A stretch of 64,000 bases of DNA. Origin: an uncultured Candidatus Rokubacteria bacterium (GTDB taxonomy: Bacteria; Methylomirabilota; Methylomirabilia; Rokubacteriales; CSP1-6). Of the stretch, positions 28,925 through 36,491 are shown piece after piece. Both the position numbers and the translations under genes were made by a program. The notes beneath the pieces were generated by a model. It was not told the origin of the DNA. It saw only the letters and a program-made list of their open reading frames with translations, and ran no database searches. The DNA is taken from positions 352,001 to 416,000 of the forward strand of contig CAVWWD010000005.1 in assembly GCA_963758635.1 (NCBI GenBank). Reading direction: 5' to 3'. Each line of letters begins with the position of its first letter. Positions within the stretch are counted from its first letter, which is position 1.

Positions 28925-29662
28925 TCATGAGGGAGCGCTTCCCTGGGCCGCGCGGCTCTGCCACGCCACGTGCCCGACGAAGAACGGCCCGAGGCGCTCG
29001 ATGTACTGCAACGTCTGGGTCGTCGCGCGCATGGCGTGGACGATGTGGGACAGCGGCTGCAGCTCCCGGCCGACCAGCCCGATCACGAAGTCGTTGTCGT
29101 GCTGATCGAGCCCGTGGCAGGCCAGCCGCACGTCGTGCGCGAGGTCCGCCTCGCCGTACGCCCGACCGATGGCCCCGTGCTCGCGCAGGATCGTCCCCTG
29201 CTCCGCCGCGGTCAGCCGCGCGAAGGTGCCCGAGCGGCGCAACGGATACCAGATCCCCCACGGCCACGCGGCGTTCAGCACGGTGCGGCGCGGCCGGTGG
29301 AGGAGCCAGTCGTCGAGGTCCGGCTCGTGCCCCGAGGCATACGTGCGCCCGAGCATGGTGAGCTCTGGCCGGTGGGTGAGCGCGGCGAACGGCTCAGCGT
29401 TGAGCAGCTCGCGGAGGCCGGAGAACAACGCGGCCGCGTCCGCGCCGAAAGCGAGCACGGCCACGCCGCGCGGGTCGTTCACGTCGGCGTAGAGGACGGC
29501 CTCGACCCCGCTCGCCTCTATCGCCGCCGCGAGCGGCTTCGGGTCGGGCGCGCCGGTGAAGGCCTGGAGCTGCATGTAGAGGCGGCGCGTCGAGGTCTTG
29601 CCTCCGGCGCCCCGCTCGCTCACGTCCACCTTCGGCGCGTCGCTTTCCGCAGGCGTGCTCAT
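28925..29662 (-). CDS. Chlorite dismutase / coproheme decarboxylase (Cld/ChdC) family heme protein
   Basis: WYPLRRSGTFARL..EQGTILREHGAIGRAY, GLDQHDNDFVIG, LGPFFVG. Confidence 0.85.
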   Translation of the reverse strand: MSTPAESDAPKVDVSERGAGGKTSTRRLYMQLQAFTGAPDPKPLAAAIEASGVEAVLYADVNDPRGVAVLAFGADAAALFSGLRELLNAEPFAALTHRPELTMLGRTYASGHEPDLDDWLLHRPRRTVLNAAWPWGIWYPLRRSGTFARLTAAEQGTILREHGAIGRAYGEADLAHDVRLACHGLDQHDNDFVIGLVGRELQPLSHIVHAMRATTQTLQYIERLGPFFVGHVAWQSRAAQGSAPS

Positions 29663-29771: not shown

Positions 29772-30959
29772 CTAGCGGCGGGCGGTGTGGAGGCAGCCGC
29801 GGAGCGCGTCGGCGAGGCTGGCCACGTCGGGCTCGTTCACGAGCGTGGCGCCCTCGCACGCAATCTCGTGGACGCTCAGCCCGCCGCGGGCCAGGGCGGC
29901 CCAGCCGAGGTCCGAGGTGCCGTGGTGGCGCCCGTCGTGTCGCCGCCCCGGCACCAGGAGCGTGACCCGCCCCGGATACGGACGCGGCGCGTAGCGGGCG
30001 ATGGCTGCCTCGTGCCCGGCGGCGATGGCGCGCAGCTCGCGCTCGGCCGGCGAGTCGCCCGGCGCCGGCTCGCTCGGCGCGCGCGGCGGCGCCGCCAGAC
30101 GCTCGTGGGCCCGCCCCGCCGCGTAGGCCGCGCGCGTGAGGACGAAGCCGGCCCGGTGCTCGCGCGGCGCGTGCGCGATCGTGTCCAGCTCGACCACGAC
30201 CCGCCGGGCCGCGCGCTGCGCCCGCGCGAGCAGGCCGCGGGCCGCGTCCGGGCGCTCCGCCTCGACGAGGGCCAGGAGCGCCACCTGCTGGCCCGTGGCG
30301 TGGAGCTGGCAGGCGATCTCGTAGGCGAGAATGCCGCCGAAGCAGTAGCCCGCGACGTGGTATGGCCCCGCGGGCTGGAGCCCGCGGATCGCCTCGACGT
30401 AGCGCCCCGCGATGTCCTCGATGCGGTCCAGCCGAGAGCGGAGGTGGCTCGCCTCCGGCCGGAGCCCATAGACGGGCTGCTCCGTCCCCAGGCGCCGGGC
30501 CAGGGCCTGATAGCAGAAGATCTGCCCGCTGTGCTGGTGGACGCAGAAGAGCGGTAGGGAGGCGCCCGCGGGCTGGATGGGGACCAGCGCCGACGGGATC
30601 TCACGCGGCTGCCTCAGGAGGTTCGCAAGCGCCTCCACGTTCGGCGCCTGCAGGATCGTGGTCAGGGGCAGCTCGCGGCCGAAGGTCCGCCAGACGCCGG
30701 CGAACAGCCGCACGGCCAGGAGCGAATGCCCGCCCAGGTCGAAGAAGTTGTCACGGATGCCCACCGGCCGGACGGCGAGCGCTTCCTCCCAGATCGCGGC
30801 GAGCTTGGACTCGACCTCGTCGCGGGGCGCCGTCGCGGCCTGCCGGCCGGGCGGCGGCGCCGGCAGGGCGCCCCCGCCGGGCGGGCGCTCGGCGAGGAGG
30901 GCACGGACCAGCGCCCGCCGGTCGGACGACCAGCCGAGCACGCCGTTGACGCCGCTCAC
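29772..30959 (-). CDS. Stand-alone PCP + thioesterase-fold didomain protein with N-terminal docking-like helix
   Basis: APRDEVESKLAAIWEEAL...DNFFDLGGHSLLAVRL (intact Ppant Ser); PLFCVH, GPYHVAGYCFGGILAYEIA; GTGA overlap with the upstream stop. Confidence 0.9.
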   Translation of the reverse strand: MSGVNGVLGWSSDRRALVRALLAERPPGGGALPAPPPGRQAATAPRDEVESKLAAIWEEALAVRPVGIRDNFFDLGGHSLLAVRLFAGVWRTFGRELPLTTILQAPNVEALANLLRQPREIPSALVPIQPAGASLPLFCVHQHSGQIFCYQALARRLGTEQPVYGLRPEASHLRSRLDRIEDIAGRYVEAIRGLQPAGPYHVAGYCFGGILAYEIACQLHATGQQVALLALVEAERPDAARGLLARAQRAARRVVVELDTIAHAPREHRAGFVLTRAAYAAGRAHERLAAPPRAPSEPAPGDSPAERELRAIAAGHEAAIARYAPRPYPGRVTLLVPGRRHDGRHHGTSDLGWAALARGGLSVHEIACEGATLVNEPDVASLADALRGCLHTARR

Positions 30960-33900
30960 ACGCTCACCGCCAGCGGGTGGCCGTCCGCGCGCCACGCGCG
31001 GGCCAGGTCCACCATGTCCGGCCACCAGCAGAGGAGCTCGCCGAACTGCCGCACCAGCTCGCGCGAGAGGGCCCGTGCGTCCTCGGGAGAGCGGCCGTCC
31101 AGGAGGTCCAGGGGCGTCAGGTAGTCGGGCCGGGTCAGGGCCTGCGCGAGGAGGTCGAGATAGCGCCGTACGTCGTCGGCCCAGAACGCGGGCTCGCTCT
31201 CGTGGGCGTCGAGCGCGGCCTCGGCGGCGGCGGCGAAGCCGCGGGTCGCCCGCACGTGCTGCTCGAGCACGTAGTGCTCGAAATCCGCGAGACGCAGCTC
31301 GCCGATCTCGCGCAGGTGGCCGCCCAGGGCGCGCTGCCGCTGCCGCTCGTCGCCCGCCACGCGGGCGCCGTCCCACCCGTGCAGGCAGGCGAGAATCAGC
31401 TTGCCGCTGTCGAACCCGCTGGCGGAGCGGAAGATCTCCCCGGGCCAGAAGCGGCGCATTTCGGCGGGCGCGTGCAGCAGCGTCCACGGCAGGTGGCCGA
31501 TGAAGCTCCCGGGCACGCACATCCACACCATGCTCGTGAAGATCACGTCGTGGGCGCGGCCCAGAGGCACGCGCGGCGGCAGGACCACGCGGTTGTCCAC
31601 CGCCATGAACGTCGACATCCCGAACGTGTCGTCGGACAGCGTCGGGCGCGGGACGACGCGCGCCATCTCGCGGCTCGCGCACGTCTCGCGATAGGACGCC
31701 TCCGATCCGACGAGCCGCCGGTGGGAGGCGTCCGGCATCAGGAGGTAGCCCATGGGGGCGCGCCAGAACCCGAAGGGCGCGCCCCACGCGCAGTCACCGA
31801 GGAGCCCGTGGAAGGTGGCGCGGACCACGCCCCCGCCGCGCTCGAGCCGCTCGACCACCGCCGAATCGGCGCCGTCCACGTGGAGGTCCGCCACGCCGCG
31901 CGCGATGTCGGCCACCCGGCGCCCGAGGAGCTCCTCGTGGAGCGCGAGCACGTCCCGCGTCTCGCGCGGCGTGTGCGCCTCGGCGGCCGCCCGGTCCGGG
32001 AAGAACCAGTATTCCGAGGGGTCGCGCGAGCCGCACAGCCCGAGCCCCCCGGAGGCGCGCGCAGGATGGGGCGCGACCCGGCACACCGTGTCGTCGTCGG
32101 TCTCGAAGAAAACCTCCCCCGCCGCGTGCAGGAAGAGCGCGTTGGTGTTCCCGCCGATGGTGGGCCCGGGCACGCCCTGTCCGAACGCGAAGCGCGCCAC
32201 GTCCTCGGGCACGCCGCCCTTGTCGACGAGGCGCCGCACGCAGGCGTCCTTCTCGGGCGCTCCCGCGTAGGACACGCGGGCGCCGTAGCGCGTCTTGAGC
32301 GACCGCAGGACGTCCAGGTACTCGGCTCTCGCCCGCGGCGATCGGGAGTCGTCGCTCACCACGAACTCGACCGCGCGCCCGTGGGCGCGGCAGTTGTCCA
32401 TGTAGCTGGCGAGGCCACGGCCGAGCGCCTCCACGCGATCGCAGGTCAGGATGCCGACCGTGGTGATCGGCGGGCCGGCGCCCGCTTCCGACGTTGCGTC
32501 CGCGGCCAGCGCGCGGCGGCAGCGGTCGGCGAGGTCGCGGCGCGCCACGAGCACGCCCGCCGCGGCGGCATCCGCGAGCCGGCTCTCGATCGCCGCCGGA
32601 TCGCCCCCGGACAGGCGCGCGAGACGACGCGCGTGCGTCTGCAGCGAGCCGAAGTCCGGGCACCGGACCGCGAGATCGGCGGTCGGCACGGGCAGCCTCG
32701 CCCAGCGCCCCCGGCCCGACGACACGACCTCGGTGCCGGCGTGGGCCACGCCGCGCTCGAAACCGAGGCAGCGGTAGAGCTCGGCACGCTCCGGGAGCTC
32801 CGCGGCGGCCGCACGCGAGGCGAGGCCCCGGTCGACGAGGCGCGCCGCGACCTCCTTGTCGGAGAGCCGATCGACCTCCGCCACCAGCGCGGCCACGCGC
32901 TCGAGATCGCGCCCGCCCGCGCGCTCCCGGATCGCTCCGGCGAGTCGCGCGACCGTCGGCACGCCCGCGACCGCCTCCGTGGTCAGCTCCACATCGAGCG
33001 CGTCGGCCAGCCAGCGGGCCACGGCGCGGGACTCGTCCGGGCCCGCACCGAGCCCCGACAGGTCGTCCTCGGGCGCCACGCGCGCGACGCGCAGCTGCCG
33101 GGCCCACGCGGCGCCGAGCAGGTCTTCCAGCGCGCTCGCCGGCCCGGCGGCGGCCGGAACATGCCGTGCCTGCCGCCACCGCTCCACGGCCTGGAGCACG
33201 TGGGAGGCGTCGTGCAGCCCGCTCGCGATGCGCCGGAGCGTGGCGGGCGCCCGACCGGCCGTGGGAGCGCGCTCGGCCGCGGCCTCGTCGGCCGCCTCGG
33301 ACGGGACGGGCTCGCCACGCGCGGGCCGCGCGGCCACGGCCACCTCGGTGGGGATCGCGAAGCGAAGCCCGGCGGTCGTCTCCTCGCGGTACGGTCCGCC
33401 GACCTCGGCGAGGAACGAGAGCGCCGGCTGATTCTTCGCGGTGGGCGAGAACGGGAGGTCGACGACCCGACATCCGGACGCGGCGGCGCGCTCGGCGAGG
33501 TGCGCGAGGACATGATGCTCCACGCCCCGCCCGAGGGCCCGGCAGCTCATGAGCAGGCTGTCCACGACGAACCGCGGGCGCGGCCGGGGAGAAGATCGCC
33601 ACGCCGACGAGCCCGTAGTCGCCGAAGCGGTCGGCGACGCTCACCGTGAGGCACTCGAGGCCCGCGGCGTCGAGCCCCAGCACCTCGCGCTCGGACCGGC
33701 GGATCGTGGTGGTGTTGAACTGGTTGGTGCGCTGCGTGAGCTGCGAGACCCGCGCGGCCTGGGCCGGCGTCATCGCGCCGATGTCCACACGGAGGTCGAG
33801 GCCAGCCAGGAACGTCTCGAACGTCTCGGCGGCATCGCGCAGCCGCGCGCGCGCCGCCTCCTGGCGATAGAGCGTCGTGCGCTGCCGGTCCTCCGCGGTC

Positions 33901-34955
33901 AGCGCGCCACGGTCGAGCGACCACACGCGGTCGAGGAACGCTGGAATCTCCGCGGGCGCGGGCAACGGCAGGACGAGGACCTCCGGACACGCGGCCTCCA
34001 CCTCGGCGCACTGGACGGGGTCGTCGTCGATGAAGACGAAGCTGTCGAGGCCGAGGTTCAGCTCCTCGGCGATCGCGTGGATGTTCTCGGACTTCGGCTT
34101 CCAGTTGACGCGCCAGGACACGAAGTGCTCCCGGCGGAGCCGCATCCCGGGATGCCGATCGAGGACCTCCAGCACGTCGGCCTCGGCGTTCTTGCTGCAG
34201 AGGCACAGGAGCCGTCCCGCCTCGTGCTGGCCGAGCATGAACTCCTGGAGGGCGACGCGGGGGGCGTCCACGTGGACGCCGAGCGCGCCGTCCTCACCGC
34301 ACACCCCGGTCCACAGCGTCTGGTCGCAGTCGAGCACGATGACCTTCGCCGGGCGCGCGAGCGCGCCATGAGCGCGGCGCGCGAGCGCGGTGCCGAGGGC
34401 GGCGAACCCCGCCGGCGTGTAGGGCACGTGTCCGAGCGCGAGCCCCTGGGGATCGTGCATCGCTTCCGCGGCGAGCCCGCGCGCGACCTCGGCCGAGGGC
34501 ACCACCGACACGCCGGCGAGCCCGCGAGCGCCCTCGGCGAACCGGCGCTCGAGGGCGGCGACGTGGGCCGCGCGGGCGGGATCGGCGAGCGCCGCCGGCG
34601 AGGCGGGCGCGAAGCCCACGACCAGGGGCGAGCGCGCTCGCGCCGCAAACCCGGACACGGCGGCCTCGAGCTCGCCGAGCGTCCGGGCCGCCGCGTCCGC
34701 CGCGCTTCCCTGCCCGGCCGCGGCCATCCAGTCCTCGAGGCGCACGAGCACGACGTTGAGGCCGCCCGCGTTCGTGGACAGCAGGCTGGACGGGTTCAGC
34801 AGCTCCTGGAGGACCTGGTTGTAGGCGGCGAACTCCACCCGAACGCCGAGGTCGAGCGCTTCCATCCAGAAGGACAGGGAATCCCCTACGGGCTCCGCCG
34901 TGAACGTCGCGGCGACGGCAACAATTGGCGCGGACCGGGTCGATTTGTCGCTCAT
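30956..34955 (-). CDS. FkbH-like glyceryl transferase/phosphatase fused to a degenerate carrier domain and a GT-A-like domain (about 1330 aa; one frameshift near 33575)
   Basis: AATFTAEP, VLDCDQTLW, CSKN, FIDDD, QRTNQFN, DRFGDYG, LMSCRALGRGVE; carrier-like segment about 33135-32925; GT-like ILTCDR, FVVSDDS, ETDDD; AAGGA RBS. Confidence 0.85.
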
Positions 34956-34998
34956 GTCCTTACTGCGACTGCGTGAGCTGGGAGTCGCGGAGTTTCTG

Positions 34999-35015
34999 AG
35001 CAATCCACACGCCAA
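34999..35015 (-). promoter_or_regulatory. Putative sigma54 (-24/-12) promoter
   Basis: TTGGCGTG-TGGA-TTGCT, exact GG-N10-GC spacing, about 45 bp upstream of the ATG at 34955. Confidence 0.65.
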
Positions 35016-35156: not shown

Positions 35157-36180
35157 TCAGCCCCCGCGCGTGTGCATCTCCAGCCTGGGGTCCAGCTTGA
35201 GCGCGCCGATCTGGATGAGGGGGCCGCGGCGGGGCATGGCGAGCCGCGCCTCGGCCCCGCGATCGTCGCGGGCAGTCCAGCCCTGCCGGATCAGGGCGGC
35301 CAGCTCCGCCGCCGACGCGCCGGCGCGGAGCGGCCCGCGGAGATCGGTGCCGAGGGTCGCGTACAGGCAGAGGAACCACGTGCCGTCGGCGGTGAGGCGG
35401 CTCCGGTCGCACGCGCGACAGAACGGCTGGGTCGTGGAGGAGATGATGCCGAACACGAGCCCGTCGGCGAGGCGAAACCGATCGGCCGGCGCAGAGCCGT
35501 CCTCGCGCAGCGGCTCGATCCCTCCGTAGCGGCGCTCGAGGGCGGCCAGCACCTCGGCTCGCGACACGACCTGGTCCATCGACCAGCCAGTGGCGCCGCC
35601 CACGTCCATGTACTCGATGAACCGCACCTCCGCGCCGACGCCGCGGCTGTACTCGATCAGGTCCGCGATCTCGTCGTCGTTGACGCCGCGGATCACCACG
35701 GTGTCGAGCTTGAGTCCGCGCTGGAAGCCGGCGCGCCGCGCGGCCTCGATGCCCTCGAGCACGTCGGCGTGGTCGTCACGACGGGTGAGACGACGGAACC
35801 GGTCGGCCTGGAGCGTGTCGAGGCTCACCGTGAGCCGGTGCAGGCCGGCCGCGAAGAGCGCCGGCGCGCGGTCCGCGAGGAGCACGCCGTTGGTCGTCAT
35901 GGCGAGGTCGCCGATCGCCGGCTTCGCGGCGAGCATCCCCACCAGGCGCTCGAACGTCGCGCCGGAGCAGCGGCTCCCCGCCGGTGAGCCGGACCTTGTC
36001 GACGCCGAGGCTCGTGAACACGTCGACGAGCATCGACATCTCCTCGAACGTGAGGACGTCCTCGCGCGGCAGCCACGCGTACTCCTCCTCCGGCATGCAG
36101 TAGGCGCAGCGGAGGTTGCACCGGTCGGTGACGGACAGGCGCAGGTTGCGGAGCGGGCGCCGGAGGCGATCGACGATCAT
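35157..36180 (-). CDS. moaA: GTP 3',8-cyclase MoaA (frameshift near 35960)
   Basis: [46 protein letters not shown]-terminal GG. Confidence 0.96.
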
Positions 36181-36185
36181 GACCG

Positions 36186-36491
36186 TCAGGGAAGCTCCAC
36201 GAAGACCTCGCCGGCCTCCACGCTCACCGGGAAGCACGCGACCTTGACCGCGGGGTTGTTGGCGTTCGCTCCCGTCGTCACGTCCCAGCGCCAGCCGTGC
36301 CATGGGCAGGCGACGAGCGGCCCGTCCATGTCGCCGTCGCCCAGGGGGCCGCCCCGGTGCGGGCAGGCGTTGTCGATGGCGTGATACGCGCCGTCCACGT
36401 TGAACACGGCGAGGCTCCGCCCGTTGGCGTCGATCACGCGCCCTTCCCCGGCGGGCACGTCGGCCGCGGCCGCCACTCTCACGCGAGGCAT
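36186..36491 (-). CDS. Rieske [2Fe-2S] ferredoxin
   Basis: CPHRGGPL...CPWHGW. Confidence 0.92.

What the first reader, a model, noticed from the sequence alone, without database searches (positions are those of the whole stretch)
29772..35015. Self-contained two-gene thiotemplate system: FkbH-carrier*-glycosyltransferase-like fusion plus PCP-TE*, with no A, C or KS domains
Seen: two coupled genes (GTGA overlap at 30956-30959) sit between cld and moaA with their own putative promoter. Gene 1 is a complete FkbH (DxDxT, LMSCR Cys), a carrier-like domain and a roughly 500-aa GT-A-like domain. Gene 2 is an intact PCP plus a TE fold. No other BGC gene is in the window. Known: FkbH enzymes take 1,3-bisphosphoglycerate and load glyceryl onto a carrier protein, normally for PKS/NRPS extender units or tetronates. 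Inference: this minimal line could load glycerate on the PCP, glycosylate it while tethered, then release or transfer it. That would be a carrier-dependent route to a glycosyl-glycerate, or to glyceroylation of a glycan or lipid, distinct from the GpgS/MpgS/Mgs routes. I do not recognise this architecture as a characterised pathway.
Basis: partly seen in the sequence, partly recalled or inferred. Interest (0 to 1): 0.85.

Follow-up and report, generated by a model that had tools for sequence, protein, structure and literature searches.

The report
Two-gene carrier line glycosylating glycerate
Two genes inserted into a housekeeping operon of a soil bacterium encode a stripped-down assembly line that likely loads glycerate on a carrier protein and is predicted to attach a sugar to it, using a large unnamed enzyme family whose predicted fold matches plant sugar-ring mutases; no paper found in our searches describes this.

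Summary
Gene 1 (34955-30956) is FkbH, a Ser-less carrier, a docking-like helix, an RRE-like domain and a 500-aa domain X. Its frameshift is absent from 5 contigs in 3 other runs, and intact 1332-aa orthologues exist. Gene 2 is docking-like helix-PCP-TE. The pair is an insertion: moaA abuts cld in 27 of 29 relatives.

X is not a generic GT-A. Its model matches GT75 (MtdL Z 21.9, rice UAM2 21.5, next 14.8). It keeps the metal and base residues but lacks the self-glycosylated-Arg motif. In NRPS fusions, 9 of 13 modules directly before X carry Ser/Thr codes (2 of 25 in the host genome), which points to a tethered beta-hydroxyl as acceptor.

Corrections: the TE is non-canonical (Cys, no catalytic His); most FkbH-X fusions partner a C-(A)-PCP-TE gene, so this pair is a reduced form, though it recurs at about 50% identity; most X proteins are stand-alone; no promoter consensus was found.

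Best reading (0.5): on-carrier O-glycosylation of glyceryl. The scan earlier noted an analogous FkbH+GT4 cassette on other DNA.

The parts
30956..34955 (-). Gene 1 (1332 aa in intact orthologues): FkbH - dead carrier - docking-like helix - RRE-like domain - GT75-like domain X; broken in this assembly by one extra base near 33576
34350..34955 (-). N-terminal extension found in front of FkbH in the homologues
   Evidence: FkN profile
33400..34349 (-). FkbH HAD/glyceryltransferase; DCDQT at 34331-34317, LMSCR Cys at 33544-33542
   Evidence: TIGR01686
33576..33579 (.). One-base frameshift, absent from contigs of three other runs; probably an assembly error
32918..33136 (-). Degenerate carrier domain; attachment Ser replaced by Pro (33040-33038); wholly deleted in L023
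32831..32899 (-). Internal docking-like helix (LVAEVDRLSDKEVAARL); role inferred
32501..32776 (-). RRE/winged-helix-like domain (beta3-alpha3)
   Evidence: weak Foldseek match to heterocyclase 4v1v/4v1u, E about 0.01
30959..32470 (-). Domain X, GT75-like GT-A fold: DDD 32098-32090, invariant Asp 31795-31793, R-x-x-D 31558-31547, metal His 31474-31472; no RG[FY]P motif
29772..30959 (-). Gene 2 (395 aa): docking-like helix - PCP - non-canonical TE
30888..30932 (-). N-terminal docking-like helix (WSSDRRALVRALLAE), like the N-termini of C-A-PCP-TE partners in homologous loci
30606..30821 (-). Intact PCP; Ser79 at 30725-30723
29799..30554 (-). TE fold with HQHSG loop (30539-30525), Cys206 (30344-30342), Glu233 for Asp, Gly370 for catalytic His (29852-29850)

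Best explanation
The two genes form a minimal carrier-protein line that likely loads D-glycerate onto the gene-2 carrier and is predicted to O-glycosylate it there with a GT75-like domain. Step 1 (family knowledge): FkbH takes 1,3-bisphosphoglycerate and makes glyceryl-S-PCP. Step 2 (inferred): its own carrier has no Ser, so it would load gene 2's PCP in trans, held by the retained docking-like helices; the genome has two PPTase genes. Step 3 (inferred): X binds Mn/NDP-sugar like GT75 but has no internal Arg acceptor, so its base Asp would activate the tethered beta-hydroxyl (C3-OH) as acceptor. Step 4 (weakest): the His-less Cys-TE would take the acyl group by transthioesterification and pass it to an outside acceptor such as a surface glycan, lipid or amine, rather than hydrolyse it. 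Sugar and final product are unknown.
For: Fold: AF2 pLDDT 94; MtdL Z 21.9 (rmsd 3.9, 318 aligned), UAM2 Z 21.5, next GT-A 14.8. DDD in 66/66, metal His 69/69, base Asp 67/69, R414 60/69 rows; 144-149 of 148-150 for DDD, His and base Asp in the 150 best representatives. RG[FY]P motif, which holds MtdL R159 (PMC9937993), is in 0 of 150. A domains directly before PCP-X: 9 of 13 have Ser or Thr codes, 1 Asn-like, 1 Cys-like, 2 lack Asp235 (Ser/Thr codes checked against PMC12283262 passages); host-genome background 2 of 25; about 6 of 9 after grouping X domains above 50% identity. FkbH or its N-extension lies in 36 of 47 loci found by pattern scans. C/A are dispensable: dead C (HPLVADF) in L012/L013; none in the window or L023; FkbH-PCP + X + phosphodiesterase/GMC loci lack C/A/TE. 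The TE signature (HQH, Cys, Glu, no His) is shared by P0049, P0058, P0059, P0056/L023, P0061, P0062. FkbH and X are more conserved (88-92%) than the dead carrier (76-80%) among three strains. Glycan genes flank several fused loci (L015, L021, L044, L126).
Against: No biochemistry. The wider family is mostly stand-alone: 70 RRE-X and 43 X-only against 37 carrier fusions among the best 150, and 9 of 10 loci fetched from alignment-based genome searches have no FkbH, carrier, C, A or TE nearby, so X does not need a carrier. The 36 of 47 count comes from a pattern biased to the query's clade and includes near-duplicates. 13 fused loci have a downstream C domain. The TE lacks the His that characterised Cys-TEs keep (PMC11298585 passages). 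The X-to-GT75 residue mapping rests on a weak profile alignment (hhalign prob 21%, E 0.001) plus motifs, not a residue-level superposition. The window clade has R218T where most have Arg. No acceptor, sugar-supply or export gene is in the insertion. Strain SNPs give only weak purifying signal: 13 of 31 synonymous against about 27% expected, from a table showing 40 of 78 sites.
Confidence: 0.5

Rival explanations
1. X is a protein or peptide glycosyltransferase: the RRE-like domain binds a protein substrate, and the fusion decorates a protein, with glycerate loading a separate or add-on step.
For: RRE-X is the commonest form (70 of 150). 8 of 9 stand-alone loci lie beside secreted repeat or Ig-like proteins and the ninth is a tandem pair near a radical SAM/SPASM gene. 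GT75 glycosylates an Arg of its own chain (PMC9937993). The window keeps its RRE-like domain.
Against: No background control for those neighbours, which are common in such genomes (my knowledge). The RRE is not detected in 24 of 37 carrier fusions. The Ser/Thr bias of the preceding module is not expected if the acceptor is an unrelated protein.
Confidence: 0.17
2. The pair is a decaying remnant of a FkbH-PCP-X plus C-A-PCP-TE mini-NRPS and makes no product.
For: Carrier Ser lost, C and A lost, TE His lost; fuller forms are commoner among fused loci (13); rare in the phylum (close form in 1 of 251 genomes).
Against: Both genes are open in strains 12% diverged; the same architecture and TE signature recur at 49-50% identity in L023, which keeps the docking-like helix after deleting the carrier; all catalytic motifs of FkbH and X are kept.
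Confidence: 0.13
3. X is a true GT75 NDP-sugar pyranose-furanose mutase that supplies furanose donors to other enzymes.
For: Best structural matches are both GT75 proteins; DDD, His and R-x-x-D are kept. The title of PDB 7yua speaks of a covalent Arg mechanism (paper not read); if that Arg were R257, X keeps it.
Against: R159K abolishes MtdL activity (PMC9937993) and its RG[FY]P motif is absent from 0 of 150 matches' X domains, i.e. none has it; Q229 maps to Thr by motif. A mutase gains nothing obvious from fusion behind a Ser/Thr/glycerate carrier, and no other glycosyltransferase is in the insertion.
Confidence: 0.08
4. X acts on the tethered beta-hydroxyl but not with a sugar (nucleotidyl or phosphoryl transfer, or activation for release), with the Cys-TE possibly closing a beta-lactone.
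For: X lies C-terminal to the carrier in all 37 carrier fusions, like a terminal domain; Cys-TEs ObiF and SulM make beta-lactone/lactam (PMC11298585); one clade pairs X with an alkaline-phosphatase-family enzyme.
Against: The kept residues correspond to sugar-binding and base residues of MtdL; the line continues to a C domain after X in many loci; GMC oxidoreductase and glycan neighbours suggest a sugar.
Confidence: 0.12

Closest known systems
FkbH loading modules in NRPS/PKS (vioprolide, cystomanamide; PMC8949500 passages)
   Same: FkbH with DxDxT and Cys motif next to a carrier; glyceryl from 1,3-BPG.
   Different: There glyceryl goes to a C domain; here there is no C/A, the fused carrier is dead, and a GT75-like domain follows.
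GT75 / RGP / UAM: MtdL, Hyg20, rice UAM (PMC9937993)
   Same: Three-part fold (Z 21.5-21.9), DDD, metal His, R-x-x-D.
   Different: About 500 vs 370 aa, 10-17% identity, no PF03214 hit, no RG[FY]P Arg motif, RRE-like N-domain, fused behind carriers.
Glucosyl/mannosyl-(phospho)glycerate synthases GpgS, MpgS, Mgs
   Same: GT-A fold (Z 12-13.7); a glycerate acceptor is proposed.
   Different: They act on free (3-phospho)glycerate at O2 (my knowledge); here the acceptor would be thioester-bound and likely O3.
Cys-nucleophile NRPS thioesterases SulM, ObiF (PMC11298585 passages)
   Same: PCP-TE didomain with Cys nucleophile.
   Different: They keep a Cys-His-Asp triad; this TE has no His after the last strand and has an HQH loop.
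DUF6271 (PF19787)
   Same: Language-model neighbour at 0.93; one homologue hits it at E 1.4e-4, below cut-off.
   Different: Function unknown; the window's X has no hit.

Membership tests
FkbH glyceryl transferase | TIGR01686 above cut-off | tested here: met
   235 bits for the N-piece vs cut-off 146.65; 304 bits for intact P0021
FkbH glyceryl transferase | DxDxT and SCR Cys motifs | tested here: met
FkbH glyceryl transferase | Glyceryl transfer from 1,3-BPG to a holo-carrier | not testable with these tools
   needs assay
GT75 (RGP/UAM/MtdL) | GT-A plus core plus C-terminal helical fold | tested here: met
   Z 21.9 and 21.5, 318 aligned, rmsd 3.9-4.1; next 14.8
GT75 (RGP/UAM/MtdL) | DDD motif and metal-binding His (MtdL D109-111, H287) | tested here: met
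GT75 (RGP/UAM/MtdL) | R257-x-x-D260 (phosphate binder and base) | tested here: met
   R414/D417 aligned to it; conserved
GT75 (RGP/UAM/MtdL) | Autoglycosylated Arg in RG[FY]P (MtdL R159) | tested here: not met
   0 of 150 have the motif; a spatial substitute (R376/R380) could not be checked
GT75 (RGP/UAM/MtdL) | Pfam PF03214 match | tested here: not met
   no hit in 17 members at E 0.5 nor in the own genome
GT75 (RGP/UAM/MtdL) | Mutase or autoglycosylation activity | not testable with these tools
   needs assay
Type I NRPS thioesterase | Alpha/beta-hydrolase TE profile behind a PCP | tested here: met
   PF00975 93.7 bits
Type I NRPS thioesterase | Ser/Cys-Asp-His triad | tested here: not met
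   Cys206, Glu233, Gly370 by alignment; His141/143 may substitute, untested
NRPS | A and C domains | tested here: not met
   none in the window
Peptidyl carrier (gene 1 copy) | Phosphopantetheine Ser | tested here: not met
   Pro in window, P0021, P0022
Peptidyl carrier (gene 2) | GGHS Ser and PF00550 above cut-off | tested here: met
   48.3 bits
RiPP recognition element | beta3-alpha3 winged helix | tested here: inconclusive
   secondary structure fits; Foldseek to heterocyclase only E about 0.01; not folded alone

The most novel reading that the evidence does not exclude
A GT75-derived family of about 2,600 sequence clusters has lost its self-acceptor arginine and become an outward glycosyltransferase, recruited repeatedly as an in-line assembly-line domain that glycosylates carrier-bound glycerate, serine or threonine. 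This locus is its smallest form: a glyceryl-glycoside built on a carrier with no condensation step and handed on by a His-less cysteine thioesterase acting as a transacylase.
Probability: 0.4. Interest if true: 0.85.

Novelty: new variant of a known kind. Interest (0 to 1): 0.72.

Why it matters
GT75 is described as a mutase/self-glycosylating family (PMC9937993). A large unannotated sister family that appears to face outward would extend its chemistry. An embedded domain that glycosylates Ser/Thr/glycerate on the carrier would be a new NRPS tailoring domain that standard Pfam/NCBIfam scans miss, useful for mining and for building glycopeptides. The two-gene version is the simplest test bed: two soluble proteins, one mass-shift assay. 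It also flags a widespread His-less Cys-TE subfamily with no assigned chemistry.

Tried and rejected
Sequence searches did not name X: Pfam/NCBIfam, PDB sequences with A1 and A2 (swamped by NRPS columns), plasmids (no match). Complex prediction of the two docking-like helices gave no answer (0.27, mark 0.32) and is used neither way. A single-sequence model of gene 2 was unusable (pLDDT 42), so TE geometry is untested. The X tree (quick mode, 72 rows; short and duplicate rows left out) does not group the window with L023, and its base is open; I did not test one clade, so one or two origins of the C-less pair is undecided. The DUF6271 genome search found nothing over cut-off; its handles match those of the Terriglobia phylum search, so actinomycetes were probably not sampled. 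RNA run X9 has contigs over both genes but contigs do not show transcription. Promoter scan negative. First motif-regex attempt at A-domain codes failed and was redone by alignment. Literature: 'DUF6271' 0 papers; FkbH+glyceryl+glycosyltransferase+thioesterase 0; searches listed nothing on a GT75-like domain with a carrier (listings only); subscription journals are largely missing from the library. Supplements of PMC9937993 (GT75 alignment, Fig. S3) were not viewed. Rejected: a GpgS/Mgs-type domain (Z 12-13.7 vs 21.9); a real pseudogene break at 33576; start at 35015.
Full report
Observation. Two minus-strand genes overlap by GTGA at 30959-30956. Gene 1 runs from ATG 34955 and is split by one extra base near 33576. 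Five contigs from three runs of three studies lack a base there (tables cut), intact 1332-aa orthologues exist at 88-89%, and the assembly has many NRPS frameshifts, so the break is probably an assembly error. Gene 1 holds FkbH, a carrier with Pro for Ser, a docking-like helix, an RRE-like domain and a 500-aa domain X. Gene 2 holds a docking-like helix, an intact PCP and a TE. No sigma-70 consensus was found. A 97%-identical gene-2 copy is labelled Candidatus Rokuibacteriota. In 27 of 29 family relatives moaA directly precedes the cld-like gene, and the close form of X is in 1 of 251 phylum genomes (two others have a distant X without FkbH), so the pair is a lineage-specific insertion. The genome has two PPTase genes.

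What X is. X has no Pfam or NCBIfam name; 6 of 17 homologues weakly hit GT2 at the N-terminus. The protein atlas points to DUF6271 and RGP/STELLO. The model (pLDDT 94) matches MtdL (Z 21.9, rmsd 3.9, 318 aligned) and rice UAM2 (21.5), well above other GT-A enzymes (14.8 and below, including MpgS 13.7, GpgS 13.3, Mgs 12.1) (Foldseek agrees). From PMC9937993 (parts 1-4 of 7 read) the key MtdL residues are D109-111, H287, R257, D260 (base), D195 and R159 (nucleophile). Using a genome-derived MtdL relative as bridge, X keeps DDD, the His, R-x-x-D and an invariant Asp in the D195 loop, but none of 150 representatives has the RG[FY]P motif that carries R159. The bridge alignment is weak (prob 21%, E 0.001), so this is motif-level. 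X therefore works like a GT75 nucleotide-sugar site but fails GT75 membership.

Family and contexts. The family is large: 2,591 clusters at E<=1e-30. Of the best 150, 70 are RRE-X, 43 X alone (some fragments) and 37 carrier fusions. Pattern scans gave 47 loci, 36 with FkbH or its N-extension (biased to the query clade, with near-duplicates). Fused FkbH-PCP-X is followed by C-A-PCP(-TE) in 11 loci, by dead-C-PCP-TE in 2, by PCP-TE alone in L023 and the window, and by no partner or a contig end in others; L010/P0030 has the TE inside the fusion. A separate clade has X, FkbH-PCP, an alkaline-phosphatase-family gene and a GMC oxidoreductase, without C/A/TE. Alignment-based searches found X in 3 of 331 and 10 of 329 genomes of two other phyla; of 10 loci fetched, 9 were stand-alone, 8 of them next to secreted repeat or Ig-like proteins (no background control). 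This is the main evidence against a strictly carrier-bound role.

Acceptor clue. Where X follows an A-PCP module, 9 of 13 A domains have Ser or Thr codes, one Asn-like, one Cys-like and two lack Asp235; the host genome background is 2 of 25 (2 of 10 among codes starting with Asp). Grouping related X domains leaves about 6 of 9 lineages. Ser/Thr codes were checked against passages of PMC12283262; the Cys reading is recalled. Serine is the 2-amino analogue of glycerate, so the shared feature is a beta-hydroxyl on a thioester. This points to O3-glycosylation on the carrier.

Gene 2. Its N-terminus matches the N-termini of the C-A-PCP-TE partners, so it is a C/A-deleted derivative. The TE has Cys206, Glu233, no His at the usual place and an HQHSG loop; six other proteins down to 47-59% identity share this, whereas SulM/ObiF keep a His (PMC11298585 passages). 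L023 has the same gene-2 type and a gene 1 with the carrier deleted but the helix kept. Shared, conserved loss argues against simple decay; strain SNPs add only weak support (13 of 31 synonymous vs about 27% expected).

Mechanism. Shown: anatomy, fold, motif conservation, recurrence, insertion. From family knowledge: glyceryl loading (PMC8949500 passages). Inferred: loading in trans, O-glycosylation at C3, acyl hand-off by the Cys-TE. Confidence 0.5; rivals are protein glycosyltransferase 0.17, remnant 0.13, non-sugar chemistry 0.12, mutase 0.08.

Novelty. All parts are of known folds, but I found no paper on a GT75-like domain in a carrier line (open-access library only, listings seen). An earlier scan note describes an analogous FkbH-PCP + GT4 + TE cassette in Acidobacteria (unchecked). 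Verdict: real, probably functional, a new variant of thiotemplated assembly with an undescribed tailoring domain; interest 0.72.

Noticed in passing
L125, L127, L129-L134: Stand-alone RRE-X or X genes sit beside secreted repeat or Ig-like proteins (MopE-like, CTDC, TSP3, carboxypeptidase-regulatory, Big_9): a candidate protein glycosylation system.
   Followed up: partly
L128:7215-13399: Two tandem RRE-X genes followed by a small ORF and a radical SAM/SPASM gene; RiPP-like.
   Followed up: no
L018, L019, L027, L031, L034, L038: Conserved cassette of GMC oxidoreductase, alkaline-phosphatase-family gene, X and FkbH-PCP with no C/A/TE: a second condensation-free glycerate line.
   Followed up: partly
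L059, L061, L076-L079: A sister family of about 490 aa (hhalign 98.6% to X) that keeps a DxD in the D195 loop; stand-alone in cyanobacteria and the host phylum.
   Followed up: partly
P0058-P0175: Cys-type TEs are common among the best gene-2 hits (33 of 118) and many seem to lack the usual His; the regex count is rough.
   Followed up: partly
L073:1345-2469: A close MtdL relative (E 3e-49) in a family member of the host; a likely true GT75 mutase.
   Followed up: no
L006/L007: Distant X beside PF14907 nucleotidyltransferase, GT4s, PqqD and HPr-kinase-like genes.
   Followed up: partly
window 35157-36303: moaA is split into two frames, probably another assembly indel.
   Followed up: no
window 28925-29662: The 'cld' gene hits the chlorite dismutase/heme-synthase family only weakly (PF06778 E 1e-11; HemQ models below cut-off); true chlorite dismutase activity is not shown.
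   Followed up: partly
G000 contigs C3, C4, C7, C8: The host genome has several multi-module NRPS clusters and many A-PCP(-TE) genes with unusual codes.
   Followed up: no
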